Shown piece after piece: positions 17,858-44,553 of a DNA stretch of 47,248 nucleotides. The position numbers and the translations under genes were made by a program. The stretch is taken from NCBI GenBank assembly GCA_964507925.1, contig CAZDRB010000002.1:1-47248 (forward strand). Reading direction: 5' to 3'. This DNA is from an uncultured Pseudomonadales bacterium (GTDB taxonomy: Bacteria > Patescibacteriota > Microgenomatia > UBA1400 > UBA12108). Under the pieces are notes generated by a model, which saw nothing but the letters and a program-made list of their open reading frames with translations, made no database searches and was not told where the DNA came from. Numbering within the stretch: position 1 is the stretch's first letter; every line of letters starts with the position of its first letter.

Positions 17858-19623
<1,766 letters not shown>

Positions 19624-19628: not shown

Positions 19629-20873
19629 ATGAATGACGATATCGTTATAGACGTAAAAAACATCAGTAAAAAATATACTATCGCTACTGATTACCAGCCA
19701 GATACCTTACGCGAAAAAATAGTTGAACTAGCCAAGTATCCTCTCAAAGTCTTAAAAGGAGAGCATCAAAAGCCTAAGACCAAAGAATACTGGGCACTAA
19801 AGGATGTGTCTTTTCAGGTAAAAAGGGGAGAAGTGCTGGGGATTATTGGTAAAAATGGGGCAGGTAAAAGTACTCTACTCAAGATCCTCTCTCGCACTAC
19901 TGAGCCTACCTCAGGCACTATCCAAATGAAGGGTAAGGTAGCTTCACTCCTTGAAGTAGGCACGGGGTTTAACCCAGAGCTGACAGGTAGAGAAAACATC
20001 TACCTCAATGGCGCCATTATTGGTATGTCCAAGAAAGAGATCAACTCCAAGTTCAACGAAATAGTTGAGTTTGCTGGGATCGGAGAATTCTTAGATACTC
20101 CCGTCAAACGCTACTCCTCAGGCATGTATGTGCGCCTAGCCTTTGCAGTAGCCGCCCACCTTGATTCTGACATTCTAATATTAGATGAAGTTCTTGCTGT
20201 CGGAGATGCAGAGTTCCATAAGAAGAGCTATAAAAAAGTCAAGGACTTGGTGTATTCAGGAAAAACAATAGTCATTGTTAGTCATCAAATGTCAGCCGTA
20301 AGAGAGTTAGCATCTTCGGTCATAGTTATCGAAAAAGGAAAACTAATTAATAATGGAGAGACTAATCTAGTAATACATAAATACTTAAATACAAAAGATA
20401 ATAATGATAATCTCATAACAAGATTCACGAGGAATGACACCCAAAAAAAGTTACTATTAAAAAGTATCTCGATCGAAGCTAGTAATCCAAATTCTAAGGA
20501 TATTAAATATGGAGATACGCTTCAAATAACAGTGAGAACTAATAAGATAAAATCGCCAGTTTTTGCAATTGAGATAATAATAAAAAATGACATGATGGAA
20601 AAAATATGTTACTTAACAACAATGACTACCATGGGATACGAATACATCGCTAGTGGGTCTAAGGTAGAGTTGCTTACTGAGCCATTAAATTTAGCTGAAG
20701 GCAGATATTGGATTGACGTCAATTGCAGACAATATCCAAATATACATGTAGATCGTTGGAATGATGCAGGATATTTCGACATAAAACAGGCAATAGTAGG
20801 TAATGCTACTCATTCTACGCGCACTATCGAGTCTTTAGGTTCATGGATAATAAAAAGCAAGACTACTCTTTAA
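19629..20873 (+). CDS. wzt: ABC exporter ATPase with a C-terminal extension of about 160 aa (Wzt/TagH-type, putative glycan-binding domain)
   Basis: Walker A GKNGAGKSTLLKIL, signature YSSGMYVRLAFAVA and Walker B ILILDEVLAVGD. Residues about 250-414 are an extra beta-rich domain. Confidence 0.8.
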   Translation: MNDDIVIDVKNISKKYTIATDYQPDTLREKIVELAKYPLKVLKGEHQKPKTKEYWALKDVSFQVKRGEVLGIIGKNGAGKSTLLKILSRTTEPTSGTIQMKGKVASLLEVGTGFNPELTGRENIYLNGAIIGMSKKEINSKFNEIVEFAGIGEFLDTPVKRYSSGMYVRLAFAVAAHLDSDILILDEVLAVGDAEFHKKSYKKVKDLVYSGKTIVIVSHQMSAVRELASSVIVIEKGKLINNGETNLVIHKYLNTKDNNDNLITRFTRNDTQKKLLLKSISIEASNPNSKDIKYGDTLQITVRTNKIKSPVFAIEIIIKNDMMEKICYLTTMTTMGYEYIASGSKVELLTEPLNLAEGRYWIDVNCRQYPNIHVDRWNDAGYFDIKQAIVGNATHSTRTIESLGSWIIKSKTTL

Positions 20874-20963
20874 TATGAAAAATATACTTATTAAGTTTAA
20901 GTAAATGAAAATAATGAATACTATTAATAATATTAATCAGTAAAGATTCTAATAATATAACAG

Positions 20964-20990
20964 TTAACCATATCAATTAAATACTATAAT
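20964..20990 (+). promoter_or_regulatory. Weak candidate internal promoter in the largest intergenic gap
   Basis: TTAACC (20964-20969), a 15-nt spacer, then perfect TATAAT (20985-20990), about 38 nt upstream of ATG 21029. The surrounding DNA is extremely AT-rich, so a chance match is likely. Confidence 0.25.
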
Positions 20991-21028
20991 TCGACCCTAA
21001 TTAATAAAAAGTTTTTTAAAGGAAATAT

Positions 21029-21673
21029 ATGAGGCTTCATTTGGGTTGTGGACAGGTTTACTTGGATGGTTATATTAATATTGACTACCCAAAACAAAAT
21101 CACACCGTTCAAGATACACAGTTAGCTGATAAATTCGCAGATATTACAAAATTACGATATAAAAAGAATCGCGTAGAGGAGGTTCGCCTACATCATGTGT
21201 ATGAACATTTCCCTCGTGCACAGGCAATAGCTCTAATTCAGTGCTGGAATTCATGGCTAATGACCGGAGGCTCAATAATAATAGAGGTGCCAGACTTTGA
21301 GAAGATGATTAAATACATAGTCAATCCGATCTCAAGTAAAAAGATTAAATATGTAGCGAGTAGACATATTTTTGGATCACAAGAAGCAGATTGGGCGCTA
21401 CACTATGATGGGTGGACAAAAAATAGACTAATTGAAATTGCTAATCTAGCTGGATTTTCTTCGACTGTATCTAGATCGAGCTCACATAAGTATATACATA
21501 ACATAACCTTGAACGGTATAAAGACAAAGTCTTTCACAAAGAAAATTGCCAGGGATATTGCTTTTAAGTATTTAGAAAAATTTATGGTAGACGATTCACA
21601 GACTGAGAGAAAAATGATAGATCAATGGTTAAAAGTATATGATGATCAAATAAATAAATCATGGGCAATTTAA
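21029..21673 (+). CDS. Class I SAM-dependent methyltransferase (type 11-like)
   Basis: MRLHLGCGQVYLDGYINIDY start, HHVYEHF and LMTGGSIIIEVPD motifs. Confidence 0.65.
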   Translation: MRLHLGCGQVYLDGYINIDYPKQNHTVQDTQLADKFADITKLRYKKNRVEEVRLHHVYEHFPRAQAIALIQCWNSWLMTGGSIIIEVPDFEKMIKYIVNPISSKKIKYVASRHIFGSQEADWALHYDGWTKNRLIEIANLAGFSSTVSRSSSHKYIHNITLNGIKTKSFTKKIARDIAFKYLEKFMVDDSQTERKMIDQWLKVYDDQINKSWAI

Positions 21674-22446
21674 AAATTAGTGTAATTATACCTACATACA
21701 ACCGAAAGAAGCAGGTTTCTAGAGCCATAGATAGTGTAATAAATCAGACTTACAAGAATACAGAAATTATAGTTTGTGACGATGGCTCTTCAGATGGTAG
21801 TGATGCATACATCAAGCGAAAATATGCCACGAGAGTAGTATACCTAAAAATCAGACATACAGCCCTCCCTGGAGTTGCTCGAAACGCAGGAATGGCGATA
21901 GCGACTGGCAAGTATATAGCTTTTCTAGACAGCGATGATGTTTGGTTTCCTCAAAAATTAGAACTTCAAATGAGAAAAATAGAAAAAGATAAGCTTGGTG
22001 GTTGCGCTAGCAATGCCTTAATAGTTAATAGTTCAGGAAAATACAGGCAGATGTTAGAAAACATGCCCAGATTAATGACATTTGAAGAGCTCCTCAAAAC
22101 AAATTGGATTGTTTGTAGTTCGTTTATTGGTGAAGCTAGGCTCCTTAAGCAACTAGGTGGATTTCCTGTCGAAGAAAGATATCGTGCGTATGAGGATTGG
22201 ATATTATGGATGAGATTCAGCACTATCACGGATATCTGTGTAGTTGAGGATCCGCTTGTTAAGTATATAGACAACCCAGAGGAAAGTATACGTAGCATTC
22301 AAATAAACTGGGAACTTATCGCAAATGAGCTAAGAGCTAATATAATAAAATGGGGATTGTCAAATTTTATTAATCATCCAAATAAAAGAAAGTTAATTAA
22401 GTGTATTTTTCATACAATATACTATCTCAAGAAAGGTAAATCATAA
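21661..22446 (+). CDS. GT2 family glycosyltransferase
   Basis: ISVIIPTYNRKKQV, VCDDGSSDGS and FLDSDDVWFPQKL motifs. Confidence 0.8.
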   Translation: MGNLKISVIIPTYNRKKQVSRAIDSVINQTYKNTEIIVCDDGSSDGSDAYIKRKYATRVVYLKIRHTALPGVARNAGMAIATGKYIAFLDSDDVWFPQKLELQMRKIEKDKLGGCASNALIVNSSGKYRQMLENMPRLMTFEELLKTNWIVCSSFIGEARLLKQLGGFPVEERYRAYEDWILWMRFSTITDICVVEDPLVKYIDNPEESIRSIQINWELIANELRANIIKWGLSNFINHPNKRKLIKCIFHTIYYLKKGKS

Positions 22447-24167
22447 TGAAAGATTGGAAAGTAACTGATATTCGATGGGCGACTTTTGATGATTTAAATC
22501 TGCCGTTTTGGAAAAAATGGAATGCAAATAATCCGCTTCCTGGTGGTTTTTGGCAAAGAATTTGGGAATATCCTTATGCTGCCTTGCATGTTCCTCGTGT
22601 TAGTAAGACTATTGATGTGGGCGGCACTTACCCATTCGTACTTTTTAAGAATTGGCCACAATCAGTATCTGTTGATAATCGAGACTTGAACAAAGTAGAC
22701 CATCCATTATTAAAAAATAAGTGGAGGAAAAATCAACTAATTATTGCTGATGCCGCAAAAATACCAAAGAAAAATAATAGTTTCGACTACAGCATAAGCA
22801 TTTCAGCAATAGAAGAGATGCCTAATACAGTAAAAGTTTTAAAAGAAATGATTAGACTCGCAAAACATCGTGTAGTCGTGACAATGGATATAAGTGAAGA
22901 ACTTGGGGTTAATCGGATTCTAATGCGTGAAATAGAAGACTTCCTGGGAGTATCCTTCCCTGAAATACCCCACAATGTTCTCAGGTCAAATGACCCTCGC
23001 TTAGCTGAGTTTGGTCAGCCAATCGCACCAATGTACAAGCACATAAGAGTATTAGGATTAGTTATAGACTCTCTAGACGAACCAAAGGATGTCGGAATTT
23101 TAATCCCTCACTGGGAATCATACGCTTTTGCTGAGGCTTGTATTGAAGGTGTTATAAAACAGAAAAATAGTGGCGTTAAACAACACATATACTTGATTGA
23201 CGATAATTCTCTTGACGGTAGTTACCAAAAACTAAAGAGTAGGTATGGCAGAAATAAAAGCATATCATTGTTGCGAGTTAAACGTCCCGACAGGAAAACG
23301 AATCCAGACGTAGGAACATTGCTCGACATTGGTCTAACTCATGTGAAGGAGCAGTTTGTTGCAATGATTGACTCTGATGTTATCCCCTTATCTAAAGACT
23401 GGCTTAGTTTTCCGATATGGATTTTAGAAAAATACTCTGCGAGTAGCGTTGGTCTCGATACAGGATTATCTAGTGCATACTCAAAGAACTATAGTAATTC
23501 CAATGCTTGGTGGCAACCTGAATATGGGTATTCAATAAGAGGGGGATACTATGACAATAATTGGTTTACTGTAACAAATAATTTATATAGAGTCATGCGG
23601 ACATCTACGGCCAAAGTGGTGTCAGAAAATATAGGTTTTACTAGAGGACACTCAGCTATTCTTAGAAAGTTGGATAAAATAAAATTACAATTACTTAATT
23701 TTATTGAAAGAAAATTAAATTTAGCCCTAACTCCCTCTGATCCGAGAGATCCATACCTACCCGTAGGCTGTGATAATGGGGTAGCCGCGAACCATTTTAT
23801 AGACGTCAATCGAATGGGTGGAAAGTTCAATTTACCACTAACAAGCTACATTGGACTCACCAAGCATGATGGTGCTTACGGCCAAAATATTTGTGATCTC
23901 GTCTTCCACTTTGCCTTGTCGACCAGAGCGCTGAGTAGAGAGAGGCGTGAGGTTATGGATCCCGGTATGCAATATTCAAAATGGGTTACTAAGATTGCTT
24001 CTAACAACAAAATATCAGACCAGTTAAAAACAGAAATGGTTCGTGACAGTAGAAAATTCAAACCTGGTGGATACGATGGTTCTATTCCAACTAGTTGGTA
24101 TACAACAGAGTACAGATACATAAAATCATTAATAGAAGTTTTTCATAAAGAAAAAAAGCATGAATAA
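22446..24167 (+). CDS. Two-domain protein: N-terminal methyltransferase-like domain plus C-terminal GT2-like domain
   Basis: 573 aa. N-terminal part has IDVGGTYPFV...IADAAKIPKKNNSFDYSISISAIEEMPN (class I MT-like). C-terminal part has VGILIPHWES..., IYLIDDNSLDGS and AMIDSDVIP (DxD). Confidence 0.5.
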   Translation: MKDWKVTDIRWATFDDLNLPFWKKWNANNPLPGGFWQRIWEYPYAALHVPRVSKTIDVGGTYPFVLFKNWPQSVSVDNRDLNKVDHPLLKNKWRKNQLIIADAAKIPKKNNSFDYSISISAIEEMPNTVKVLKEMIRLAKHRVVVTMDISEELGVNRILMREIEDFLGVSFPEIPHNVLRSNDPRLAEFGQPIAPMYKHIRVLGLVIDSLDEPKDVGILIPHWESYAFAEACIEGVIKQKNSGVKQHIYLIDDNSLDGSYQKLKSRYGRNKSISLLRVKRPDRKTNPDVGTLLDIGLTHVKEQFVAMIDSDVIPLSKDWLSFPIWILEKYSASSVGLDTGLSSAYSKNYSNSNAWWQPEYGYSIRGGYYDNNWFTVTNNLYRVMRTSTAKVVSENIGFTRGHSAILRKLDKIKLQLLNFIERKLNLALTPSDPRDPYLPVGCDNGVAANHFIDVNRMGGKFNLPLTSYIGLTKHDGAYGQNICDLVFHFALSTRALSRERREVMDPGMQYSKWVTKIASNNKISDQLKTEMVRDSRKFKPGGYDGSIPTSWYTTEYRYIKSLIEVFHKEKKHE

Positions 24168-25272
24168 GAAAAAAATCCTGTGTATCATTGGTACCCGACC
24201 TGAAGCAATTAAATTTATGCCTGTTGTTAGGCAGCTACAAAAGTCTGGTAAGCTAGAGCCATTGGTCGTTGCAACAGGTCAACATAATGAACTTTTAATG
24301 CAGACATTAAAAGAAGTAGAAATCTCTCCAGACTACAACTTGCGAGTAATGAGTAATAATCAGAAACCACATGAAGTAATATCAAGAATAAATCAAGAGA
24401 TATCAAGCATCTTATCTAAAACTGAAATAGCAGCAATCTTGGTTCAGGGTGATACTGCATCAGCACTGGCCGGTGCGATTATTGGATATTCCACAAATAT
24501 TCCAGTAGGACACATTGAGGCAGGCCTTCGCACGTATGATCTCAGAGCCCCATTCCCTGAAGAGGGGTTTAGACAAATGATTGATAGGGTTTCACGATGG
24601 TGTTTTGCTCCCACAGAGTTATCGGCAGCAAATCTATACTCAGAAAAAATTGCATTAGATAGCGTCTATGTCACTGGGAACACAGTGATTGATTCGCTAA
24701 GACTAATAGATCATAGTCTCCATAGTTCTGACGAAATTATCAATAAGCTAGGACTAAAAATAAAATCAAAATACATTCTAATGACGGCACATAGACGAGA
24801 GAATCACGGAAAATCATTTGAAGAAGTTGCAAAGGCAATTTCAACAATAGCCACCGAGAATAGAGAAATTGATATTATCTACCCAGTTCATCCTAATCCA
24901 AATGTTGGCAAGCCAATGAGAGAAGCTCTAGATAATTATTCGAATATACACTTAATTAATCCGCTTGGATACTTAGAATTTTTGAGCTTAATGAAAAATA
25001 GTCATCTGATAATATCAGATAGTGGTGGTGTTCAGGAAGAAGCGTCATATTATAGTGTGCCAGTAATACTACTTCGCGATACTACTGAAAGGCCAGAAGG
25101 GATAACGGCCGGCATTACAAGTCTAGTTGGATGTAACGCTGGTAAAATAGTTTCTTGCTTTAAAAAAATTGTAAAAAATCAAATAACTATAAGTAATACA
25201 TATCCTTATGGGGATGGTCATGCAGCAGATAAAATTGTGCGAATTTTACATAAAGACCTATGCGAAAATTAA
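24160..25272 (+). CDS. wecB: UDP-N-acetylglucosamine 2-epimerase (non-hydrolysing)
   Basis: IIGTRPEAIKFMPV, GHIEAGLRTYD, HRRENHG, VHPNPNV and DSGGVQEEA motifs. Confidence 0.85.
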   Translation: MNKKKILCIIGTRPEAIKFMPVVRQLQKSGKLEPLVVATGQHNELLMQTLKEVEISPDYNLRVMSNNQKPHEVISRINQEISSILSKTEIAAILVQGDTASALAGAIIGYSTNIPVGHIEAGLRTYDLRAPFPEEGFRQMIDRVSRWCFAPTELSAANLYSEKIALDSVYVTGNTVIDSLRLIDHSLHSSDEIINKLGLKIKSKYILMTAHRRENHGKSFEEVAKAISTIATENREIDIIYPVHPNPNVGKPMREALDNYSNIHLINPLGYLEFLSLMKNSHLIISDSGGVQEEASYYSVPVILLRDTTERPEGITAGITSLVGCNAGKIVSCFKKIVKNQITISNTYPYGDGHAADKIVRILHKDLCEN

Positions 25273-26444
25273 AAATACTCCACACAGTTGAGTTCTATCA
25301 TCCATCAGTTGGCGGTGCCCAGGAAGTAGTGAAACAGTTATCGGAGCATATGGTAATGCTGGGGCATGATGTCACAGTTGCAACAACAAAGTTATCAAAT
25401 CGACGAAAAAAGATAATTAACGGCGTAAAAATTGTAGAGTTTGAAGTAGGTGGCAATGAGGTGCGCGGTTACACAGGTAAGGATATAAAAAAATATCAAG
25501 AGTTTTTGATTAAAGGCAAGTTTGATGTGGTTATGAATTATGCCGCCCAGCAGTGGAGTGCGGATCTTGCCTTTGAGGTTTTAGATAAAATCAAGGCTAG
25601 AAAAGTATTTGTCCCTTGTGGTTATTCTGGACTTTATGATCTAGCATATCAAGATTATTTTAATAAAATGCCCGATATATTAAGGAAATATGATATAACA
25701 GTATATCTCTCTAACGACTATCGTGATATAGACTTTGCCAAGAAGCATAAAATAAATAATGGCATAGTAATACCAAATGGGGCAGACGAGAGAGAGTTTG
25801 AAGTTTTGCCATCCGTAGACAAAGCAGATTTCTTAAAAATTTATGGGATACCTGAAAATAATAAAATACTCCTTTGCGTAAGCAATCACACGGGTCAGAA
25901 AGGTCATAAAGAAGCGATAGAGAGCTTTAAGCGTGCCAAAATCAAAGATGCATCATTAGTATTTATCGGTGATATTAATCACTATGCCGGATGTTACAAA
26001 AATTGTGCCTACCAGTCGAAGTTATCCAGATTTACCAATCTGTTATTTAGAAATGGCAAAACTATTCACACTCTCAACATAAACCGAGCAGACACAGTTA
26101 AATTTTATTCTACATGTGATCTCTTCCTTTTTCTCTCAAATATTGAGTGTAGCCCACTGGTACTATTTGAATCCGCTGCTGCTGGTAAGCCATTTATTTC
26201 TAGTGGATGTGGCAATGCTGGGGAAATTGCCAAGTGGACGAAATCAGGGATCATTACTAAGTCAACACAAAAAAAAGACGGCTACACTTCTGTCGATACG
26301 AAATCAGCCGCAGAAGCTATCGAAAATCTTATAAATAGCGAAAAAAAGATGGAAACTATGGGTTCTGCCGGCAGGGCGAGTTGGCAAAAAAAGTATTCAT
26401 GGAAGCAAATTACTCTGGACTATTTAAATTGCTATAAAGGATAA
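25260..26444 (+). CDS. GT4 (GT-B) glycosyltransferase
   Basis: KILHTVEFYHPSVGGAQEVV N-terminus. EX7E-like ECSPLVLFESAAAGKPFISS near the C-terminus. Confidence 0.7.
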   Translation: MRKLKILHTVEFYHPSVGGAQEVVKQLSEHMVMLGHDVTVATTKLSNRRKKIINGVKIVEFEVGGNEVRGYTGKDIKKYQEFLIKGKFDVVMNYAAQQWSADLAFEVLDKIKARKVFVPCGYSGLYDLAYQDYFNKMPDILRKYDITVYLSNDYRDIDFAKKHKINNGIVIPNGADEREFEVLPSVDKADFLKIYGIPENNKILLCVSNHTGQKGHKEAIESFKRAKIKDASLVFIGDINHYAGCYKNCAYQSKLSRFTNLLFRNGKTIHTLNINRADTVKFYSTCDLFLFLSNIECSPLVLFESAAAGKPFISSGCGNAGEIAKWTKSGIITKSTQKKDGYTSVDTKSAAEAIENLINSEKKMETMGSAGRASWQKKYSWKQITLDYLNCYKG

Positions 26445-26445
26445 A

Positions 26446-27333
26446 ATGATTATTACCCAGCTCTCAGGCGGACTCGGAAACCAAATGTTTCAATATGCGT
26501 TGGGGAGAGTATTATCAATCAAACTTAATACCAAATTATTGTTTGATATATCTCATTTTGACTACCAGCCATATACAGACACCAAAAGATCTTATGATCT
26601 TGGTGTTTTCAATCTACCTGGAGTAATTGCAGATAAATCAATTTTGGACAAGATGGGTAGACCAAATCGATACAAAATAGTCTTAAATAAATATTTTAAT
26701 ATTGGCCTAGATCCATACCCCAAAAACTATATAAAAGAAGAGGGTCATGGTTTTAATCCCCAAATACTAAATACTCCAGACAACTCCTACCTCTCAGGTT
26801 TTTGGCAATCAGAAAAGTATTTTATTGATTATAGAAATACTATCGTCAGAGATTTTTGTTCCCGTAGTACTCCAATTTCTCCGAAGAACAAAAAACTTAG
26901 TAAGATCATTTCAGAATCAAAATGTATATCATTACACGTTCGACGCTCAGACTATGTAACAAACCCACAAGCTAATGCCTTTCATGGTGTTTGTGGCCTA
27001 GATTACTACGGTCGCGCTATGAATTATCTAGAAAATATTGTGAGAAATCCAACTTACATCGTCTTTTCTGATGACCCAGATTGGACCAAAGCGAATATCA
27101 AAAGCCAACATAAATTAATTCACGTATCACACAATACAGGTCATGACTCTCATGAAGATATTAGACTTATGTCTCTTTGCGCACACAATATCATTGCAAA
27201 CAGCTCTTTTAGTTGGTGGGGTGCATGGCTTAACTCAAATCCAAAACGAGTAGTTATTTCCCCTCGTAGATGGTTTAATACTAATCAAGTAGATACAAGG
27301 GATCTAATTCCAAAGAATTGGATAAAACTCTAA
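26446..27333 (+). CDS. GT11 alpha-1,2-fucosyltransferase
   Basis: GGLGNQMFQYALG, SLHVRRSDY and NSSFSWWGAWLN, the three canonical GT11 motifs. Confidence 0.8.
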   Translation: MIITQLSGGLGNQMFQYALGRVLSIKLNTKLLFDISHFDYQPYTDTKRSYDLGVFNLPGVIADKSILDKMGRPNRYKIVLNKYFNIGLDPYPKNYIKEEGHGFNPQILNTPDNSYLSGFWQSEKYFIDYRNTIVRDFCSRSTPISPKNKKLSKIISESKCISLHVRRSDYVTNPQANAFHGVCGLDYYGRAMNYLENIVRNPTYIVFSDDPDWTKANIKSQHKLIHVSHNTGHDSHEDIRLMSLCAHNIIANSSFSWWGAWLNSNPKRVVISPRRWFNTNQVDTRDLIPKNWIKL

Positions 27334-27334
27334 T

Positions 27335-28015
27335 ATGTGGTCATTTATAAAATCTCCTCAGCAAGCAAATCCGAGTAATCGGCATAAAAACGGAAATCCA
27401 GAAGTAAATAACTGGGTAGTCTCAGAATTTATCATTAAGAAAATAATTCCAGTGACTGGAGTCCATCCATATCCTCTTTCAGAACTGCAGTTACTAGTTG
27501 ATGCTATAGTATGGGCTAACCCTAAGTATATTTTTGAATGGGGTACTCATATTGGTGTTGCAGCAAGAATCTTCTCCGAAACTCTTACTTACTTTAATAT
27601 TCCAGGAACCGTCTATTCTATCGACCTCCCAGACAGTATCGAACATATTGAACACCCTCATAATACTAGAGGCATGCTAGTCAGAGATAAAAGTAACGTC
27701 AAACTGATACAGGGGGATGGTATTAACTCTTCTAAGAAAATCCTAAAAAGAAGTAATGGCGCAGGAGTAGTGTTTTTCTTAGATGGAGATCATAGTTATA
27801 AGTCTGTATCCCGTGAGCTAAAAGTCATCGGCCAGCTATATCCTAGAGCAGTAATTATCGGTCACGATACTCTTTATCAAGTTAAATCAAGTAATTATAA
27901 TGTTGGACCTCACAAGGCATTTAAGGATTTTCTAAGAAAATACTCGAAACGATACATAAAATACGAGTCGAACCTAGGATTGCCAGGCATGACCTTATTA
28001 ATCCCCAAAGCATAA
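27335..28015 (+). CDS. Class I SAM-dependent methyltransferase (CmcI/Methyltransf_24-like O-methyltransferase)
   Basis: IFEWGTHIGVAARIF and VVFFLDGDHSYKSVSRELK motifs typical of this methyltransferase group. Confidence 0.55.
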   Translation: MWSFIKSPQQANPSNRHKNGNPEVNNWVVSEFIIKKIIPVTGVHPYPLSELQLLVDAIVWANPKYIFEWGTHIGVAARIFSETLTYFNIPGTVYSIDLPDSIEHIEHPHNTRGMLVRDKSNVKLIQGDGINSSKKILKRSNGAGVVFFLDGDHSYKSVSRELKVIGQLYPRAVIIGHDTLYQVKSSNYNVGPHKAFKDFLRKYSKRYIKYESNLGLPGMTLLIPKA

Positions 28016-28017
28016 TT

Positions 28018-29052
28018 ATGACCCCTCCATTTGTCTCAGTACTGATGCCTATCTTTAACGGAGAAAAGTTTTTAGATGAGTCCATAGTAAGTATACTAAA
28101 ACAGTCATATACAAATTTTGAGTTCATAATTATTGATGATGGATCAACTGATAATACCTCGAAGTTACTTAAGAGGTATAAAGCTAAGGACAATCGCATA
28201 AAAATAATCACTCACAAAAAAAATCTAGGAATAGTCATATCACTTAACGAAGGATTAGATAGAGCAAAAGGGAAGTATATTTTGAGAATGGATGCTGATG
28301 ACATAGCATATCCAAATCGATTTGTTGAGCAAATAAGATTTATGGAAGCTAATCCTGGAGTAGGTGTATGCGGCACATGGATCAAAGTATTAACTAATCA
28401 GCCATATGTTTGGAAGTCTCCTACAAATGATGCTGATATTAAAACTAGTTTATTCTTCGAATCTGTCATAGCACATCCATCTGCATGTATACGTACATCG
28501 GCTCTCAAGCAATCAGATCTCAAGTATGACCCAAAATATATCTACGTCGAAGATTATAATCTATGGCTAAATCTTAGTAAAAATTGGGAATTAGCCAACA
28601 TACCCATCCCTCTTCTAGAGTATCGTTCACATTCCTTGCAGACAAGCGCGGTAAAAGGGAAAAAACAATCACAAAACTTGCTCAGCTTAAAAAGTAGACT
28701 ACTAAAATCGCTCTATCCGAAGGCTGAAAGTAAGGATTTTCGTCTTCATCAAAAAGCGATGGGGTGGCCTGTCGCAACATCATTAGACGAGTTATTCAAG
28801 CTCAGAGATTGGTATAAACTATTGATTAATCAGAACAAGAAGTTGTCGATTTATCCTAAACATAAGTTTGCTTATAAAATTGCAGAAAAATGGGTAGGTG
28901 TTTGCCATTTAGCTAAAAATTTAGGCATAAAACGCTATTTATACATATTCACACTACCTCGCTTGGTGTTGCCAGGAATTTACATAATAATGTACATGAA
29001 ACTATATTCAGTAAATCAATATATTAAGGCCACAATCAAAAGATTTGTATGA
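28018..29052 (+). CDS. GT2 family glycosyltransferase
   Basis: VSVLMPIFNGEKFL, IIDDGSTDNT and RMDADDIAYPNR motifs. C-terminal hydrophobic segment. Confidence 0.8.
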   Translation: MTPPFVSVLMPIFNGEKFLDESIVSILKQSYTNFEFIIIDDGSTDNTSKLLKRYKAKDNRIKIITHKKNLGIVISLNEGLDRAKGKYILRMDADDIAYPNRFVEQIRFMEANPGVGVCGTWIKVLTNQPYVWKSPTNDADIKTSLFFESVIAHPSACIRTSALKQSDLKYDPKYIYVEDYNLWLNLSKNWELANIPIPLLEYRSHSLQTSAVKGKKQSQNLLSLKSRLLKSLYPKAESKDFRLHQKAMGWPVATSLDELFKLRDWYKLLINQNKKLSIYPKHKFAYKIAEKWVGVCHLAKNLGIKRYLYIFTLPRLVLPGIYIIMYMKLYSVNQYIKATIKRFV

Positions 29053-29843
29053 AATTATCTATCAGTGTATGTACTTACAACCGCTCCAAGAACTATGAAC
29101 GTGTTGTTGCCTCCCTAAAGTCACAGTTAAGAAATAATGTAGAACTAGTGAGTGTAGAAGGAGTTGCGGGTCTTGCTAAGGCGAGGAATATTGGTTGGCG
29201 TAAAGCTAGGGGGGAGTATGTCGCCTATATTGACGATGATGCCGTTGCAACATCTGATTGGGTAAAAAATATTCTAAACTTTATCAAATTACACCCAGAT
29301 GTAGTCGCTTTTGGTGGGCCTTACAGCTCGTCTAACCAGTCTGAGCTACCAACATGGATCCCAAAGGAGTTAACTACCATGGAAGTCGCTGCCAAAAAAC
29401 CTCGACCCATCCATCTCCCACACGAATGGCTGACTGGCACCAACATGATCTTTAGGCGGGACACACTAAAGTCGATTGGTGGGTTTGACGAATCTCTCGG
29501 CGTTACACCTACTAGGAGGGCCTATGGAGAGGAAACGGACCTCCTAATACGCCTGCATAACGCTGGCCATGAGATTTGGTATGACCCCAAAATCAAAGTA
29601 CTCCATGAATTCTCTAAACAAAAACAATCTTTCTCCTTTCTATTAAAAGATCAATTTACCCACGGCCTAAATAGTCGACATACTTTTAAGAATCTACAAA
29701 GAAGCGATCCCGGTAAAACTGCCAATACTATGTTTGATCGTCTGACTAGACCAGGAATATCCTTCAAAACTAGGGTCTATTTCCTCATAGCCCCACTCGC
29801 CTACATTTTGGGCATGCTCGTAGGTCGCATCAGGCACGATTAG
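29049..29843 (+). CDS. GT2 family glycosyltransferase
   Basis: LSISVCTYNRSKNY and AYIDDDAV (DxD) motifs, with a C-terminal TM helix. G+C returns to the flank level here. Confidence 0.7.
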   Translation: MKLSISVCTYNRSKNYERVVASLKSQLRNNVELVSVEGVAGLAKARNIGWRKARGEYVAYIDDDAVATSDWVKNILNFIKLHPDVVAFGGPYSSSNQSELPTWIPKELTTMEVAAKKPRPIHLPHEWLTGTNMIFRRDTLKSIGGFDESLGVTPTRRAYGEETDLLIRLHNAGHEIWYDPKIKVLHEFSKQKQSFSFLLKDQFTHGLNSRHTFKNLQRSDPGKTANTMFDRLTRPGISFKTRVYFLIAPLAYILGMLVGRIRHD

Positions 29844-29857
29844 AGTAGAATAATCTC

Positions 29858-30832
29858 ATGGGTAAAATCTTAGTTACTGGCGGATGTGGTTATATCGGTA
29901 GCCACGTTGTCAAAGCGCTTTCTGAGGCAGGGGAAACTGTGGTTGTGTATGACAATCTCACTCAGGGCAATCAATCAGCGCTCCTTGGCAATGAGGAGTT
30001 GGTTGTCGGTGACATCCTAGATACATTAAAGCTTAATAGTGTCTTTCAATCCCATGATATTGAGGCTGTTGTTCATTTGGCAGCTCTAGTTAATGCAGCA
30101 GAAAGTGTAAGTAAAGCAGACCTCTATCATGAGGTTAATGGCCGGGGTTCACAAAATGTCTGGGAAGCTGCGCTAAGTCATCGAGTTAAACATCTCATAT
30201 ATGCTAGTTCTGCCGCAGTCTATGGCACTCCAACTAGCACCGAACCTATTTCCGAAAATGCACCAACTATCCCCACCAACCCTTACGGAGAGAGTAAGCT
30301 AGCTGGTGAAAAATCACTCATCGAACTGTCAGTAAATCGTGCCAATTATCTAGCCTTTAGATTCTTTAACGTTGGCGGAGCAGAGAGTCTGGGGAGGCTT
30401 GGTCAAAGTTTGGCGAGCCGAGCTATTATGCAGCGTCTCTACGCGCATACCCTAGAAGGTGCTGAACCAGTGGTCATTAGTGGTAATGACTACAACACCC
30501 CTGATGGGACAGTTGTCCGAGACTTTGTTCATGTTGAAGACATCGCAAGCGCGATAGTTATGGGGATCAAGCATCTAAGAGCGGGCAATTCCTCAGCAAT
30601 CCTTAATCTAGGTGGGGGTGAGGCTCACACCATAGATGAAGTGATAAAACGTGTTGAAGCAGTTGTTGGCCATCCACTCTCGATAGTTTATGGCCCACGT
30701 AACCCTGGAGACATTAGTTACTCCTTGGCGAATATTGCGAACGCTAAAAAGCTACTATCATGGTCTCCTACTAGGAGTTTTAAAGATATTGTCGAAAGTG
30801 GTTATAACTCATATAGGAACCGTCATGCTTAA
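29858..30832 (+). CDS. galE: UDP-glucose 4-epimerase
   Basis: ILVTGGCGYIGSH, YGESKLAGE (YxxxK) and VRDFVHVEDIA motifs. 324 aa. Confidence 0.8.
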   Translation: MGKILVTGGCGYIGSHVVKALSEAGETVVVYDNLTQGNQSALLGNEELVVGDILDTLKLNSVFQSHDIEAVVHLAALVNAAESVSKADLYHEVNGRGSQNVWEAALSHRVKHLIYASSAAVYGTPTSTEPISENAPTIPTNPYGESKLAGEKSLIELSVNRANYLAFRFFNVGGAESLGRLGQSLASRAIMQRLYAHTLEGAEPVVISGNDYNTPDGTVVRDFVHVEDIASAIVMGIKHLRAGNSSAILNLGGGEAHTIDEVIKRVEAVVGHPLSIVYGPRNPGDISYSLANIANAKKLLSWSPTRSFKDIVESGYNSYRNRHA

Positions 30833-32363
30833 ATTCGCACTCGCTTGCGTTGGCATTATCGCATTCTGGTCTCTCATTACTCCCATGTTTGAGTTTCCAG
30901 ACGAGCAGGCGCATTATGGCAGCGTGGACTACCTTTTAAACCAGGGAGAGATGCCCAGCTACGGCAAAAATGATCTAAACCTAGAGATGCTCAGAGCTCA
31001 GGAGTATCTCGGTACTTTTCGAGATGGTTTGGGTAATAATAAGTACACTTATCACCCTGAGTACCATGTTGAATACACAAATACAGTTGTTGGTAAATAT
31101 GAAACTGAAATTATTAACTTAAATCGTAGTGAATTTCGCGACAATTATGTCGGTACCGAAGCCGCAAAATACCCTCCTCTCTACTACCGCCTAACTTCAC
31201 TCTATACTTGGCTTGTTAACTCTGCTGACTTAATCACTCGGGTATTCGTCGCCCGCCTAGCTAGCGTAGACCTCTCCATCTTGATGGCGATCGTTTCCTG
31301 GAAAATAGGCGAGCTAGTTTTTCATAAGAAAAATTACGTCAAAGTTTTTGTACTCATGGTCATGCTCCAACCGATGTATAGTTTCGTCACCGCTGGTATC
31401 AATTCTGACAATCTTCACAACCTCCTCTTTATGACGCTAACCTATGGATGTTTAAGGCTTCTCAAAACTGGTATAACTCTACCGAATCTTATTCTTATTA
31501 CTGGTAGTATTGTTCTCGATATTTATACCAAACCGCAGGGATTTATTGGAATCCCACTCGCGCTTGCCGCAATACTGCTCTATGCTATAACTCATAAAAA
31601 ATGGCACACCATCCTCTACTCATTTGTTGGTATTACCTTGGTCATGTTGCTCGCTACTAGCCAGTGGGAGAAATATGGCCATCTCCTCACTGTCTCAAAC
31701 AATCTTGGGATAAGTTTTATCGATTATCTTCGCTTTTCTGTTAGTAAGTTAATGGCACAAAATGTTGTTTGGTATTGGGGAGTCTTTAAGTGGCTAGGGG
31801 TGGTACTCCCTCCCATTTACTGGCAGGTAGCCAACCGGGCAATCCTCCTCTCCGTTATCGGCATGGCCATCTATTCCTGGAAAGTATGTAAGAGGAAAAA
31901 GTTAATCGCAGACCCCGTTCCAATTTTCTTTATGATCATTACCAGCATAATCTATGCACTTGCTATCTTCTGGTATGACTGGCAACATATGAAAATAAAC
32001 GGCTATTCTCTCGGAATTCAAGCGCGTTATTTTTTCCCAACCCTAACAGCTCATCTGGCTCTCATGTTAACAGGCATAACAGCCATAGGCTGGAATAAAA
32101 AGGCAAGAATCTGGCTTAGAAATCTAGTTGTAATCCTCTTCGTCGGGCTGCAAATAGGTGCCATCACACGCCTCATCACGATCTACTACCCAGCTACCAG
32201 CATTACTGAGCTATTTAATCAGCTGAGCCAATATAAGCCAGTTTATGCTAAGGGAGACTGGTGGTATCTCTGGTTCTTTATCTATTTCTACTCGCTTGTC
32301 TATCTAATCAAAAGCTCACTAGCTGTGGGCAAGAAGGTATTGGGGTGGCCTTACCAAAAGTAA
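30825..32363 (+). CDS. DUF2142-like polytopic membrane protein (second paralogue)
   Basis: FEFPDEQAHY, YPPLYY, GINSDNLHNLLF, VWYWGVFKWLG and QLSQYKPVYAKGDWWYLWF mirror 15291..16829. I prefer ATG 30825 (MLKFALACVG), an 8-nt overlap with the galE stop. The tracked 30690 start lies inside galE. Confidence 0.65.
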   Translation: MLKFALACVGIIAFWSLITPMFEFPDEQAHYGSVDYLLNQGEMPSYGKNDLNLEMLRAQEYLGTFRDGLGNNKYTYHPEYHVEYTNTVVGKYETEIINLNRSEFRDNYVGTEAAKYPPLYYRLTSLYTWLVNSADLITRVFVARLASVDLSILMAIVSWKIGELVFHKKNYVKVFVLMVMLQPMYSFVTAGINSDNLHNLLFMTLTYGCLRLLKTGITLPNLILITGSIVLDIYTKPQGFIGIPLALAAILLYAITHKKWHTILYSFVGITLVMLLATSQWEKYGHLLTVSNNLGISFIDYLRFSVSKLMAQNVVWYWGVFKWLGVVLPPIYWQVANRAILLSVIGMAIYSWKVCKRKKLIADPVPIFFMIITSIIYALAIFWYDWQHMKINGYSLGIQARYFFPTLTAHLALMLTGITAIGWNKKARIWLRNLVVILFVGLQIGAITRLITIYYPATSITELFNQLSQYKPVYAKGDWWYLWFFIYFYSLVYLIKSSLAVGKKVLGWPYQK

Positions 32364-35755: not shown

Positions 35756-36030
35756 ACGACACGCGACTACTAATCGGTTCGCTCTCAAACGACTTATTCA
35801 GGGTCGCATCCCTGGCTCAACGCGGATCAGATGCCGGAGCAATCCGGTTTTTGACAGAAGCCAAGCGTTGGTCGCGTCCCCTAGAAAAGATGAGTGTCTC
35901 CAAATATATTGTAGGCATTGCCAAAGAAATCTCGGCAAAAGAACCTGATTCAATCTCGCAGGCAGAAGCAGAAAAATACCTTATGTACGGAGTTTTGCTC
36001 CAAAACTACGCTCTGCATCAATTCCCTTGA
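35752..36030 (+). CDS. Small hypothetical protein (92 aa, predicted helical)
   Basis: ATGA overlap with the upstream DUF5674-like gene. No motif recognised. Coding status is supported only by ORF length and coupling. Confidence 0.4.
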   Translation: MNDTRLLIGSLSNDLFRVASLAQRGSDAGAIRFLTEAKRWSRPLEKMSVSKYIVGIAKEISAKEPDSISQAEAEKYLMYGVLLQNYALHQFP

Positions 36031-44543: not shown

Positions 44544-44553
44544 TATTTACTAT

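What the first reader, a model, noticed from the sequence alone, without database searches (positions are those of the whole stretch)
20200..29050. AT-rich cassette of about 9 kb embedded in the locus: likely an exchangeable glycan-specificity module
Hand-counted G+C per 60-nt line drops from 36/60 (20101-20160) to 19/60 (20221-20280), 12/60 (20341-20400), 18/60 (22681-22740) and 14/60 (28981-29040). It returns to 32/60 at 29161-29220, similar to 33/60 at 4261-4320.

The right boundary coincides with the gene junction at 29049/29052. The block holds the window's largest intergenic gap (20874..21028, 8/60 G+C in line 20881-20940).

Its genes specify sugar identity and decoration: two methyltransferases, three GT2 enzymes, a methyltransferase-GT2 fusion, WecB, a GT4 and a GT11 fucosyltransferase.

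This pattern matches serotype-determining cassettes swapped by homologous recombination between conserved flanks. No integrase, transposase or flanking direct repeats were seen.
Basis: partly seen in the sequence, partly recalled or inferred. Interest (0 to 1): 0.65.

Follow-up and report, generated by a model that had tools for sequence, protein, structure and literature searches.

The report
Swappable surface-sugar cassette in a CPR bacterium
An AT-rich 8.8-kb block of sugar-building genes in an uncultured Microgenomates (CPR) bacterium is the replaceable "type-determining" middle of a surface-glycan export locus. Its left edge lies inside the exporter ATPase gene wzt, a familiar serotype-locus design that my searches did not find described for this bacterial group.

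Summary
All eight hand-counted G+C values are exact. The block 20200-29050 has G+C 0.359 against 0.457 for the rest of the window, and GC3 of 0.26-0.34 against about 0.43-0.62 in most other genes.

- Relatives keep the flanks: Fcl-Wzm-Wzt(aa 1-198) on the left, a 264-aa GT2 and GalE on the right, at 62-95% amino-acid identity.
- Between the flanks they carry different gene sets.
- DNA homology to five independent relatives stops at 20215-20224, just after the Walker B/D-loop codons of wzt. The H-loop, hinge helix and carbohydrate-binding domain of Wzt therefore belong to the cassette.
- Homology resumes at about 29080-29200.
- The cassette is itself a mosaic. At 25270 (WecB/GT4 junction) identity to one metagenome contig jumps from about 65% to 97-99%.
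- The right half is 82-93% identical to a relative whose flanks are only 58-72% identical.
- AU tests reject congruent trees (p 0.004 and 0.002).

There is no integrase, tRNA or flanking repeat, so exchange by homologous recombination is the likely route.

This is a new member of a known kind, like the E. coli O8/O9a-type Wzt loci and the Gram-positive S-layer glycan loci.

The parts
17888..18817 (+). Conserved left flank: Fcl-like GDP-L-fucose synthase (SDR epimerase/reductase).
   Evidence: Best NCBIfam match is GDPFucSynFcl at 292 bits, below its 500-bit cut-off. Pfam Epimerase E 1.8e-55. It is 78-85% identical in six relatives.
18796..19623 (+). Conserved left flank: wzm, the ABC-2 permease of the glycan exporter.
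   Evidence: Pfam ABC2_membrane 60.6 bits. It is 67-93% identical in relatives. The top named hit is from a Candidatus Microgenomates MAG.
19629..20222 (+). wzt 5' part (codons 1-198): Walker A through Walker B/D-loop. This is the conserved core and the last stretch of left-flank homology.
   Evidence: It is 73-95% identical in nine relatives. The invariant motif LDEVLAVGD ends at codon 193. DNA homology to L002, L003, L007, L095 and an X3 contig ends at 20215-20224.
20223..20873 (+). wzt 3' part (codons 199-414): H-loop, hinge helix and C-terminal carbohydrate-binding domain. This is cassette module 1.
   Evidence: About 20% identity to the same region of six relatives. Pfam Wzt_C scores 35.0 bits against a cut-off of 30.4, residues 274-386. 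The AF2 model has helix 245-254 and an all-beta domain at 264-386. Foldseek's top hits are full-length A. aeolicus Wzt, 7k2t/8dku, E 5e-33. The word-based search found one related protein among 5.8 billion (49%, P0122). L095's Wzt C-part is a more distant relative, 30% over 206 residues.
20874..21028 (+). 155-bp AT-rich spacer (16% G+C) between wzt and the next gene. It is a possible module junction and/or internal promoter: TTAACC at 20964, a 15-nt spacer, TATAAT at 20985-20990, and AAGGA at 21019 before the ATG at 21029.
   Evidence: In all relatives the gene after wzt abuts or overlaps it. The promoter reading is inference only; the consensus scan gave no excess of promoter-like sites.
21029..21673 (+). 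214-aa class I SAM-dependent methyltransferase, starting with motif I (MRLHLGCG). With the next gene it forms module 2.
   Evidence: Pfam finds no significant hit for the protein itself (Methyltransf_23, E 0.069). There are 3042 representative homologues; those scanned hit Methyltransf_23/11/25 over the aligned region and are often fused to GT2. phrog_6636 'methyltransferase' E 2.3e-7. BLASTP against the window's 235-aa methyltransferase gives E 2.6e-5.
21661..22446 (+). GT2 glycosyltransferase (261 aa), overlapping the methyltransferase gene by 13 nt. Together they look like a split version of the common MT-GT2 fusion proteins.
   Evidence: Pfam Glycos_transf_2 E 1.3e-33. The MT-then-GT2 pair recurs next to wzm/wzt in Patescibacteria, Saccharibacteria and Methanosarcina loci L023, L063, L056 and L058.
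22446..24167 (+). 573-aa methyltransferase-GT2 fusion with a C-terminal region of about 250 aa that has no family match. With WecB it forms module 3.
   Evidence: Pfam Glycos_transf_2 at residues 218-321 and Methyltransf_11 at 88-141. No PDB sequence relative. Pattern scans found none in the GTDB representatives or the JGI metagenome contigs. Homologues: L013 77%, L095 71%, L014 65%.
24160..25272 (+). WecB, the non-hydrolysing UDP-GlcNAc 2-epimerase (supplies UDP-ManNAc).
   Evidence: TIGR00236 scores 390 bits against a cut-off of 210. The nearest non-self homologues are only 64, 55 and 50% identical, followed by a 42-47% plateau across phyla.
25260..25272 (.). Internal recombination breakpoint at the WecB/GT4 overlap.
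   Evidence: Identity to L013 is 60-79% to the left and 97-99% to the right. Identity to L007 is about 35-40% (unrelated) to the left and 82-93% to the right. The X3 relative gives zero cover over 20447-25135 and cover from 25136 onwards.
25260..26444 (+). GT4 glycosyltransferase (394 aa), the first gene of module 4.
   Evidence: Pfam Glycos_transf_1 and Glyco_transf_4. L013 97%, L007 90%, L003 69%, L008 66%.
26446..27333 (+). GT11 family glycosyltransferase, a putative alpha-1,2-fucosyltransferase.
   Evidence: Pfam Glyco_transf_11 E 1.4e-33. L013 99% (partial), L007 88%. The tree groups the window with L007 at 100/99 support.
27335..28015 (+). CmcI/rhamnosyl-O-methyltransferase-like methyltransferase (226 aa).
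   Evidence: Pfam Methyltransf_24 and RMNT_CmcI. NCBIfam RhmsylMtase is weak. L007 93%, L014 60%.
28018..29052 (+). GT2 glycosyltransferase (344 aa), the last cassette gene.
   Evidence: Pfam Glycos_transf_2 E 1.9e-36. L007 85%, L008 52%, L014 52%.
29049..29843 (+). Conserved right flank: GT2 (264 aa). Its start (ATGA overlap) marks the right cassette edge.
   Evidence: 70-77% identical in L002, L003, L007, L008 and L097. DNA homology to L002 resumes at 29078. Identity to L007 falls from 81-88% to 58-69% here.
29858..30832 (+). Conserved right flank: GalE, UDP-glucose 4-epimerase.
   Evidence: TIGR01179 scores 293.6 bits against a cut-off of 262.3. 62-78% identical in relatives.

Best explanation
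Region 20223-29052 is the variable, type-determining cassette of an ABC-transporter-dependent surface-glycan locus in a Microgenomates (CPR) bacterium.

Fixed frame (shown):
- Left: Fcl, Wzm and the first 198 codons of Wzt.
- Right: a 264-aa GT2 and GalE.

What the cassette supplies (gene content shown; the roles below are inferred):
- The C-terminal part of Wzt: H-loop, hinge helix and carbohydrate-binding domain. In characterised systems this part reads the chain-end cap and licenses export.
- Three methyltransferase domains, which are candidates for O-methyl caps or decorations.
- Enzymes that set sugar identity and linkage: WecB for ManNAc, two GT2, an MT-GT2 fusion, a GT4, and a GT11 putative fucosyltransferase fed by the flank-encoded Fcl.

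How it is exchanged:
- Exchange most likely occurs by homologous recombination (inferred).
- Recurrent junctions (shown) lie at the invariant Walker B/D-loop codons of wzt (about 20220), the WecB/GT4 overlap (25270) and the start of the conserved GT2 (29050).
- Cap-reader and cap/repeat-unit makers are therefore inherited together.
- The present cassette is a mosaic of about four modules with different histories (shown).

Low G+C is shared by the variable regions of most relatives. It reflects the composition of this exchanged gene pool (inferred).
For: Composition:
- The block's G+C, GC3 and tetranucleotide usage are distinct from the rest of the window.

Flanks conserved, content replaced:
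- Relatives L002, L003, L007, L008, L010, L011, L095 and L097 form a 99%-supported clade with the window on Wzm+Wzt-N.
- They carry at least seven different gene sets after wzt.
- Wzt residues 1-198 are 73-95% identical, whereas residues 199-414 are about 20% identical.

Junctions:
- DNA homology ends at 20215-20224 in five independent assemblies.
- It resumes at about 29080-29200.
- At 25270, identity to L013 steps from about 65% to 97-99%.
- The right half is 82-93% identical to L007, whose flanks are 58-72% identical.

Incongruence:
- Flank data reject a window+L007 clade (p-AU 0.004).
- GT11 data reject a window+L002+L097 clade (p-AU 0.0017).
- The GT11 tree joins the window and L007 at 100/99 support.

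Uneven homologue density:
- Wzm has many homologues at 85-93% identity.
- WecB's best non-self hit is 64%.
- The word-based search found one relative of the Wzt C-part (49%) among 5.8 billion proteins.

Exporter architecture:
- Pfam Wzt_C scores above its cut-off.
- Sequence and fold searches both put full-length A. aeolicus WzmWzt first.

Reader-maker linkage:
- Wzt C-part types co-vary with the type of the next gene. Type A (L003, L007, L008) is followed by a Methyltransf_23 gene; type B (L002, L010, L097) by an FkbM gene.
- The cap-reading mechanism itself comes from the literature (PMC9445017).

No mobile-element features:
- No integrase, transposase, tRNA or flanking repeat was found.
Against: - No comparison within one species exists. 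The nearest relatives have flanks of about 80% (L002) to about 90% (X3) DNA identity, so the time scale and frequency of exchange are unknown.
- At stricter penalties the block is only the deepest part of a broader low-G+C zone, 12.3-33.1 kb.
- Two homologous loci (L014, L011) show no G+C dip, so low G+C is not intrinsic to the cassette type.
- For the window's own Wzt C-type the next gene differs between the three loci that carry it: a methyltransferase after a 155-bp gap in the window, a nucleotidyltransferase in L012, a GT2 in L095. Reader-maker linkage is less clear here.
- All sequences are metagenome assemblies. Only contig-level depth, not raw reads, was available to exclude a chimeric join at the conserved wzt segment.
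- The glycan, its cap and its acceptor are unknown.
- The clades tested with the AU test were named after the identity tables had been seen.
Confidence: 0.85

Rival explanations
1. Vertical divergence only. The region is a fast-evolving, AT-drifting part of an ancestral locus. Relatives differ because of differential gene loss and rapid divergence, without lateral exchange.
For: - Low G+C is shared by the variable regions of most relatives.
- A distant relative, L014, has nearly the whole cassette in the same order at 51-65% identity, similar to its flank identities of 49-66%. This is compatible with old vertical inheritance of this cassette type.
Against: - The right half is more similar to L007 (85-93% aa) than the flanks are (62-82%). 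The flank-closest relative, L002 (93-95%), has unrelated content.
- There is a step from about 65% to 97-99% identity at 25270 against L013.
- AU tests reject congruent topologies.
- The Wzt C-parts fall into at least four families that are barely alignable within a clade whose N-parts are 73-95% identical.
Confidence: 0.07
2. Integrative mobile element or phage-borne glycan-conversion island, inserted by site-specific recombination.
For: - The block is AT-rich and has sharp edges.
- PHROG 'moron' glycosyltransferase families match several genes.
Against: - No integrase, transposase or other phage gene lies in or beside the block.
- There is no tRNA in the window.
- Only short, chance-level repeats lie at the edges.
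- The left edge lies in-frame inside an intact wzt, and the right edge lies at a 4-nt gene overlap.
- The same two junctions are used by many different cassettes.
Confidence: 0.03
3. Assembly chimera. The assembler joined the flank of one population to the cassette of another across the highly conserved wzt Walker B segment, so the mosaic does not exist in any one cell.
For: - All data are short-read metagenome assemblies.
- The left junction sits at the most conserved DNA stretch of the locus.
- Only contig-level mean depth was available.
Against: - Two independent assemblies of the source sample give the same join: the 47-kb window and a 16-kb Logan contig covering window 12.7-28.7 kb.
- The contig holding the cassette and the contig holding the right flank have similar depth, 23.5 against 21.7.
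- The same architecture, with an intact wzt whose 3' part differs, recurs in at least nine assemblies from other samples.
- No competing near-identical flank contig was found in the source run.
Confidence: 0.05

Closest known systems
Cap-dependent WzmWzt O-antigen exporters with a type-specific Wzt C-terminal domain: E. coli O8/O9a (= Klebsiella O5/O3), K. pneumoniae O12/Raoultella terrigena, and Aquifex aeolicus (PDB 7k2t, 8dku)
   Same: - Adjacent wzm and wzt genes.
- Wzt consists of an NBD plus a beta-sandwich CBD. Pfam Wzt_C scores above its cut-off, and the best sequence and fold matches are A. aeolicus full-length Wzt.
- Methyltransferase genes lie next to wzt.
- The N-part is conserved and the C-part is type-specific.
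- The hinge helix, which contacts the glycan in A. aeolicus (PMC9445017), lies in the variable part here (helix 245-254).
   Different: - The host is a CPR bacterium, generally held to have no outer membrane (my own knowledge). No lipid A or LPS-core genes were seen in this window, and the rest of the genome could not be searched. The product is therefore probably not an LPS O antigen.
- The cap chemistry is unknown.
- The natural recombination junction is mapped here to the codons just after Walker B/D-loop, so the last ~55 NBD residues travel with the CBD.
- That the E. coli O8 and O9a proteins show the same N/C split is from my recollection of Cuthbertson et al. 2005, which was cited in PMC2943079 but not read here.
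S-layer glycan (slg) gene clusters of Gram-positive bacteria (Geobacillus stearothermophilus NRS 2004/3a wsa cluster; Paenibacillus alvei)
   Same: - Single-membrane cell type.
- wzm-wzt lie immediately upstream of the central glycosyltransferase genes, and nucleotide-sugar genes lie at the rim.
- Genes overlap tightly and G+C is low.
- A methyltransferase-glycosyltransferase fusion (WsaE) makes a 2-O-methyl cap that Wzt is proposed to read.
- A Wzy_C-type transferase is present in the locus; here it is 45480-47126 (PMC2943079).
   Different: - No S-layer target protein or priming transferase was identified here.
- The sugars are probably fucose and ManNAc rather than rhamnose.
- The 573-aa MT-GT2 fusion has no detectable sequence relative in the PDB.
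- Cassette exchange between relatives is shown here, whereas it was only inferred from G+C for the slg clusters.
Serotype-determining O-antigen and capsule loci of Enterobacteria and streptococci, where a low-G+C central region is exchanged by homologous recombination between conserved flanks
   Same: - Conserved flanks with non-homologous central gene sets.
- A low-G+C centre.
- Mosaic sub-modules.
- Cassette trees incongruent with flank trees.
- No integrase.
   Different: - The comparisons here are between species- or genus-level relatives in metagenomes, not between strains of one species.
- One junction lies inside a transporter gene rather than in a housekeeping flank gene.
- There is no serology and no glycan structure.

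Membership tests
Cap-dependent WzmWzt glycan ABC exporter (Wzt with C-terminal CBD) | Adjacent ABC-2 permease (Wzm) and ABC ATPase (Wzt) | tested here: met
   Pfam ABC2_membrane 60.6 bits and ABC_tran 92.8 bits. PDB 8dku E 1e-68.
Cap-dependent WzmWzt glycan ABC exporter (Wzt with C-terminal CBD) | C-terminal beta-sandwich carbohydrate-binding domain fused to the NBD | tested here: met
   Pfam PF14524 Wzt_C scores 35.0 bits against a cut-off of 30.4. The AF2 model has an all-beta domain at 264-386 with pLDDT 54-81 per 10-residue block. Foldseek's top seven hits are full-length A. aeolicus Wzt over about 410 columns.
Cap-dependent WzmWzt glycan ABC exporter (Wzt with C-terminal CBD) | Locus-encoded chain-terminating modification (methyl, phospho-methyl or Kdo cap) | tested here: inconclusive
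   Three methyltransferase domains lie in the cassette. Which of them, if any, caps the chain cannot be told from sequence.
Cap-dependent WzmWzt glycan ABC exporter (Wzt with C-terminal CBD) | The CBD binds the capped terminus and is required for export | not testable with these tools
   This needs binding and export assays.
Exchangeable type-determining glycan cassette (O-antigen/capsule-locus style) | Flanking genes conserved and syntenic in relatives | tested here: met
   Fcl, Wzm, Wzt-N, GT2_264 and GalE are 62-95% identical and in the same order.
Exchangeable type-determining glycan cassette (O-antigen/capsule-locus style) | Different, partly non-homologous gene sets between the same flanks | tested here: met
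   At least seven gene sets among the relatives fetched through their Wzm.
Exchangeable type-determining glycan cassette (O-antigen/capsule-locus style) | Cassette phylogeny incongruent with flank phylogeny, with recombination breakpoints | tested here: met
   AU tests give p 0.004 and 0.0017. Identity steps occur at about 20220, 25270 and 29050.
Exchangeable type-determining glycan cassette (O-antigen/capsule-locus style) | Atypical composition of the central region | tested here: met
   This holds relative to the window only, because the genome-wide test could not be run.
Exchangeable type-determining glycan cassette (O-antigen/capsule-locus style) | Alternative cassettes segregate among strains of one species (true serotypes) | tested here: inconclusive
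   The nearest relatives have flanks of about 80-90% DNA identity. No alternative junction was seen in the source sample's contigs.
Integrase-mediated genomic island or prophage | Integrase or transposase, att repeats, tRNA target | tested here: not met
   No such Pfam or PHROG hits. Only chance-level repeats. No tRNA.
Gram-positive S-layer glycan (slg) cluster | wzm/wzt upstream of central GTs, an MT-GT fusion, and a Wzy_C-type transferase in the locus | tested here: met
   Gene order. MT-GT2 fusion at 22446-24167. Wzy_C at 45480-47126.
Gram-positive S-layer glycan (slg) cluster | The glycan is attached to an S-layer protein | not tested
   No S-layer gene was identified in the window.

The most novel reading that the evidence does not exclude
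The wzt-internal junction may be a general 'plug-in' design for cap-dependent glycan exporters across distant phyla, not a peculiarity of this locus.
- The chromosome would keep Wzm and the Wzm-docking, ATP-binding core of Wzt, up to Walker B/D-loop.
- Every incoming cassette would bring its own H-loop, hinge helix and CBD together with the enzymes that make the matching cap.
- The invariant Walker B codons would serve as the recurrent recombination site.
- Any new glycan would then arrive already licensed for export.

Five independent relatives here break at the same few codons. Earlier unchecked notes of this scan report wzt-internal junctions in Moranbacteria, Saccharibacteria and a cyanobacterium. 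In host-dependent CPR bacteria such a system could set host or phage specificity.
Probability: 0.4. Interest if true: 0.6.

Novelty: new member of a known kind. Interest (0 to 1): 0.45.

Why it matters
CPR bacteria are very small, mostly uncultured and thought to live attached to other cells. Their surface molecules are almost unknown.

This locus shows that a Microgenomates lineage devotes at least 47 kb to surface glycans. It varies the glycan type by the same cassette logic as pathogens' serotype loci. The module boundary is placed so that the exporter's substrate-reading domain travels with the enzymes that make its substrate.

This gives three things:
- a concrete marker, the wzt C-part type, for typing glycan variants in metagenomes;
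- defined parts for chimeric-transporter experiments;
- a candidate determinant of host or phage specificity in CPR.

It does not reveal a new mechanism.

Tried and rejected
- **Whole-genome composition and relatives' genomes.**
- **Relatives of the 573-aa MT-GT2 fusion.** Pattern scans found none in the GTDB representatives or in the JGI metagenome contigs. Relatives were found only indirectly, next to WecB and Wzm homologues (L013, L014, L095).
- **GTDB scan with a Wzm profile.** The best hit was 64% identical. Close relatives are therefore not among the species representatives. The scan was useful only for naming the lineage and for the wider tree.
- **Mobile-element reading.** Rejected: no integrase, tRNA or meaningful repeats.
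- **Promoter and terminator scan of the block.** No excess over shuffled sequence. The TATAAT in the 155-bp gap is noted but unproven.
- **Is the 214-aa protein related to the gene after wzt in L012 (nucleotidyltransferase)?** No similarity.
- **Population-level alternative junctions in the source sample.** Only contigs, not reads, are held for that run, and none showed an alternative join.
- **Literature search for CPR glycan-locus variability.** Nothing relevant was found.
- **Recent transfer from Methanosarcina.** The transporter-core tree puts Methanosarcinales in their own clade beside, not inside, the CPR clade.

Full report
**1. Observation**

All eight hand-counted 60-nt G+C values are exact. 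The block 20200-29050 has G+C 0.359, against 0.457 for the rest of the window. The sliding profile stays at 0.33-0.39 from about 19.5 kb to 29 kb and returns to 0.43-0.46 beyond.

The drop is mainly at third codon positions. GC3 is 0.26-0.34 for the eight genes fully inside the block. It is 0.43-0.62 in most other genes. The exceptions are the second low-G+C stretch (0.34-0.42), wzm (0.40) and GalE (0.36).

Composition-normalised tetranucleotide usage of the two block halves correlates 0.68 with each other. It correlates 0.28-0.55 with the other chunks and 0.60 with the adjoining 29051-33500 chunk.

A dynamic-programming segmentation at a mild penalty returns 20251-29150 as a separate segment. 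At stricter penalties this segment merges into a broader depressed zone, 12301-33100. Composition alone therefore defines the right edge well and the left edge less well.

Two small corrections:
- The 155-bp gap is the second-largest intergenic gap; the largest is 35756-36051.
- Only two stand-alone GT2 genes lie in the block; the third belongs to the conserved flank.

**2. What the genes are**

The whole 47-kb window consists of glycan genes.

Around the block the order is as follows:
- Fcl-like GDP-fucose synthase, 17888-18817
- Wzm, 18796-19623
- Wzt, 19629-20873: ABC_tran at residues 57-188 and Wzt_C at 274-386, above Pfam's cut-off
- a 155-bp AT-rich gap
- a 214-aa protein
- GT2 (261 aa)
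- a 573-aa methyltransferase-GT2 fusion
- WecB
- GT4
- GT11
- a CmcI-like methyltransferase
- GT2 (344 aa)
- a 264-aa GT2
- GalE

The 214-aa protein has no significant Pfam hit of its own, but it starts with SAM motif I (MRLHLGCG). It has 3042 representative homologues. The ten I scanned are mostly fused to GT2 domains, and most hit Methyltransf_11/23/25 over the aligned region.

An AlphaFold model of Wzt (mean pLDDT 67) has an NBD, a helix at 245-254 and an all-beta domain at 264-386. Its best structural matches are the full-length Aquifex aeolicus Wzt chains, E 5e-33. Sequence search gives the same answer.

**3. Whose genome**

The closest named Wzm (93%) comes from a Candidatus Microgenomates MAG. 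In a tree of Wzm plus Wzt-N from 71 loci, the window sits in a 99%-supported clade of unnamed metagenome contigs. The sister of that clade is a named Microgenomates MAG, and both lie within a CPR/Patescibacteria grouping. Earlier notes of this scan on other pieces of this genome also call it CPR.

**4. The decisive comparison**

I fetched the genomic context of eight Wzm homologues of 67-93% identity, and of homologues of the Wzt C-part and of WecB.

The flanks are conserved in order and sequence:

| Flank protein | Identity in relatives |
|---|---|
| Fcl | 78-85% |
| Wzm | 67-93% |
| Wzt residues 1-198 | 73-95% |
| GT2_264 | 70-77% |
| GalE | 62-78% |

Between the flanks, every lineage carries a different set of genes:

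| Locus | Genes between the flanks |
|---|---|
| L002, L097 | FkbM, FkbM, GT2, GT11, GT2 |
| L003 | MT23, unknown, GT2, GT2, GT4, FkbM, GT11 |
| L007 | MT, unknown, GT4, GT11, CmcI-MT, GT2 |
| L008 | MT, GT4, two unknowns, GT11, GT2 |
| L011 | FkbM, GT47, MT-GT2, GT2, unknown, GT4, unknown, GT11, acyltransferase |
| L095 | GT2, MT-GT2, WecB ... |

DNA homology between the window and L002, L003, L007 and L095 ends at 20224, 20218, 20224 and 20215. A contig from a relative with about 90% identity in a sediment run (X3) matches up to 20219 and then continues with unlike sequence.

At the protein level the break comes directly after the invariant LDEVLAVGD (Walker B plus D-loop, ending at codon 193). 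On the right, homology to L002 resumes at 29078, which is 29 nt into the conserved GT2.

**5. The cassette is a mosaic**

Window against L013 (a 4.5-kb contig from another sample):
- DNA identity is 60-79% across the MT-GT2 fusion and WecB.
- It jumps to 97-99% from the GT4 start at about 25270 onwards.

Window against L007:
- The sequence left of 25270 is unrelated.
- It is 82-93% identical from 25300 to 28950.
- It is 58-69% identical past 29100.
- L007's left flank is only 68-72% identical.

The sediment relative X3 covers both flanks and 25136-29050, but gives no cover over 20447-25135.

L014, from a distant NCBI MAG, has almost the whole cassette in the same order at 51-65% identity. Its flank genes are similarly distant, at 49-66%.

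The MT-214/GT2-261 pair recurs as a unit beside wzm-wzt in Patescibacteria, Saccharibacteria and Methanosarcina loci.

I therefore distinguish about four modules:

| Module | Coordinates | Content |
|---|---|---|
| 1 | 20223-20873 | Wzt C-part |
| 2 | 21029-22446 | MT + GT2 |
| 3 | 22446-25272 | MT-GT2 fusion + WecB |
| 4 | 25260-29052 | GT4, GT11, MT, GT2 |

The 155-bp gap, which no relative has, lies between modules 1 and 2.

**6. Formal incongruence**

On Wzm plus Wzt-N, the window groups with L002 and L003. Forcing window+L007 costs 26.8 log-likelihood units (p-AU 0.004).

On GT11, the window and L007 are sisters at 100/99 support. Forcing window+L002+L097 is rejected (p-AU 0.0017). The clades were named after I had seen the identity tables, which weakens the p-values somewhat.

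Path lengths from the window in the GT11 tree reach about 2 substitutions per site, against 0.06-0.29 to its five nearest rows in the flank tree. The cassette alleles are therefore far older than the split of their carriers, as in classical serotype loci.

Database density tells the same story:
- Wzm has a dense series of homologues at 93, 92, 89, 88 and 85%.
- WecB's best non-self hits are 64, 55 and 50%, followed by a 42-47% plateau across phyla.
- The word-based search found one related protein (49%) for the Wzt C-part among 5.8 billion.

**7. Mechanism**

*Shown:*
- The frame is conserved and the centre is replaced.
- Three junctions recur.
- The substrate-reading part of Wzt lies in the cassette.

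*From the literature:*
- In cap-dependent systems the CBD, together with the NBD's hinge helix, binds the modified non-reducing end (for example 3-O-methyl-mannose or -rhamnose in A. aeolicus).
- The CBD is required for export (PMC9445017).
- In Gram-positive S-layer glycan clusters, wzm-wzt precede the central GT genes. A methyltransferase-GT fusion (WsaE) makes a 2-O-methyl cap that Wzt is proposed to read (PMC2943079).

*Inferred here:*
- The cassette carries reader and makers together, so a newly acquired glycan type is exportable at once.
- Supporting this, the Wzt C-part families co-vary with the type of the next gene. Type A (L003, L007, L008) is followed by a Methyltransf_23 enzyme. 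Type B (L002, L010, L097) is followed by an FkbM enzyme.
- For the window's own type (window, L012, L095) the next gene differs, so the link is weaker there.
- The likely sugars are fucose (flank Fcl plus GT11 in nearly every variant) and ManNAc (WecB, found only in module-3 cassettes), with O-methyl groups.
- The product is probably not an LPS O antigen. CPR cells are generally held to have no outer membrane (my own knowledge), and no lipid A or LPS-core genes were seen in this window; the rest of the genome could not be searched.
- Candidates for the final transfer step are the Wzy_C-type protein at 45480-47126 and several GT-C (PMT_2) proteins in the window.

*Route of exchange:*
- It is most simply homologous recombination, anchored in the invariant Walker B codons and in the conserved GT2.
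- No integrase, transposase, tRNA, meaningful repeat or phage gene is present.

**8. Low G+C**

The variable regions of L002, L003, L007, L008, L010 and L097 are also 0.29-0.37, against flanks of 0.38-0.53. L014 and L011 show no dip.

Low G+C is thus a feature of the exchanged gene pool in this clade. It is not evidence for a particular foreign donor, and it is not intrinsic to the gene families.

**9. Caveats**

- All sequences are metagenome assemblies.
- The window's join at wzt is reproduced by an independent 16-kb Logan contig of the source run. The cassette-bearing and right-flank contigs have similar depth, 23.5 and 21.7. Raw reads were not available, so I give a chimera about 5%.
- No same-species comparison exists, so 'serotype' remains an analogy.
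- Tiny wastewater contigs (X2, X4) are 99-100% identical to pieces of the left half, while flank pieces are about 92% identical. This hints at recent spread of that half, but the evidence is too thin to rely on.

**10. Comparison with the known, and verdict**

The locus works like cap-dependent WzmWzt O-antigen systems and like Gram-positive slg clusters. It varies like serotype loci.

It meets the testable defining features of a CBD-bearing Wzm/Wzt exporter and of an exchangeable cassette. It fails those of an integrase-borne island.

Earlier, unchecked notes of this scan describe wzt-internal junctions in Moranbacteria, Saccharibacteria and a cyanobacterium. I did not test those, but they fit the idea that this junction is a general design.

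I rate the finding real, well explained, and a new member of a known kind, of moderate interest.

Noticed in passing
window 13502-15291: A second, smaller low-G+C stretch (GC3 0.34-0.35) holds an FkbM methyltransferase and a GT47/exostosin-like glycosyltransferase. Relatives L007 and L011 go straight from the 235-aa methyltransferase to the PMT_2 protein, and L003 has only an FkbM gene there. This is therefore a second variable slot in the same locus.
   Followed up: partly
window 6608-7863; L003 7406-8062: An AbiEi/AbiEii toxin-antitoxin pair sits inside the co-directional glycan operon. Relatives carry an AbiEii gene, a NYN-domain gene and AAA_14-DUF4143 ATPase genes at other positions in the same locus. 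Small defence or selfish genes evidently insert repeatedly between glycan genes.
   Followed up: no
L047, L084, L056, L058 (Methanosarcina loci): Methanosarcina genomes carry Fcl-Wzm-Wzt followed by GT4-GT11 or MT-GT2 pairs in the same order. These are 41-48% identical to the window's cassette proteins, about as similar as those of other CPR classes. On the transporter-core tree, Methanosarcinales form their own clade beside the CPR clade. This suggests old cross-domain sharing of the system.
   Followed up: partly
L017, L018, L019, L021, L026, L030, L032: Seven MAG contigs titled 'uncultured Pseudomonadales bacterium' carry this Wzm. The six that entered the Wzm/Wzt tree (all but L021) cluster inside the CPR/Microgenomates clade. 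L018 also shares the GT2-DUF2304-Fcl left flank at 67-78% identity. Their taxonomic titles are probably wrong.
   Followed up: no
window 35756-36051 and 36052-47126: The largest intergenic gap (296 bp) precedes a second gene set with a Wzx-type flippase (Polysacc_synt), several GT2 and GT4 genes, a GT-C protein and a Wzy_C protein. The window thus seems to hold a flippase-type pathway next to the ABC-transporter-dependent one.
   Followed up: no
window 20227-20504, 21595-21752, 22593-22743: Two wastewater runs (X2, X4) contain 151-nt contigs that are 99-100% identical to pieces of the cassette's left half. Their pieces matching the flank are only about 92% identical. This is a hint, at very low depth, that the left half circulates in another lineage.
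   Followed up: partly
window 21029-21673: The 214-aa methyltransferase domain, which has no significant Pfam hit of its own, is widespread (3042 representatives at E <= 1e-3). It often occurs as one module of giant multi-domain glycan enzymes of up to 3369 aa. It may deserve its own family model.
   Followed up: partly
window 20964-20990: A perfect TATAAT at 20985-20990 lies 15 nt after TTAACC in the 155-bp spacer, about 40 nt upstream of the methyltransferase start. It could be an internal promoter for the cassette genes. CPR promoters are uncharacterised, and the consensus scan did not flag it.
   Followed up: no
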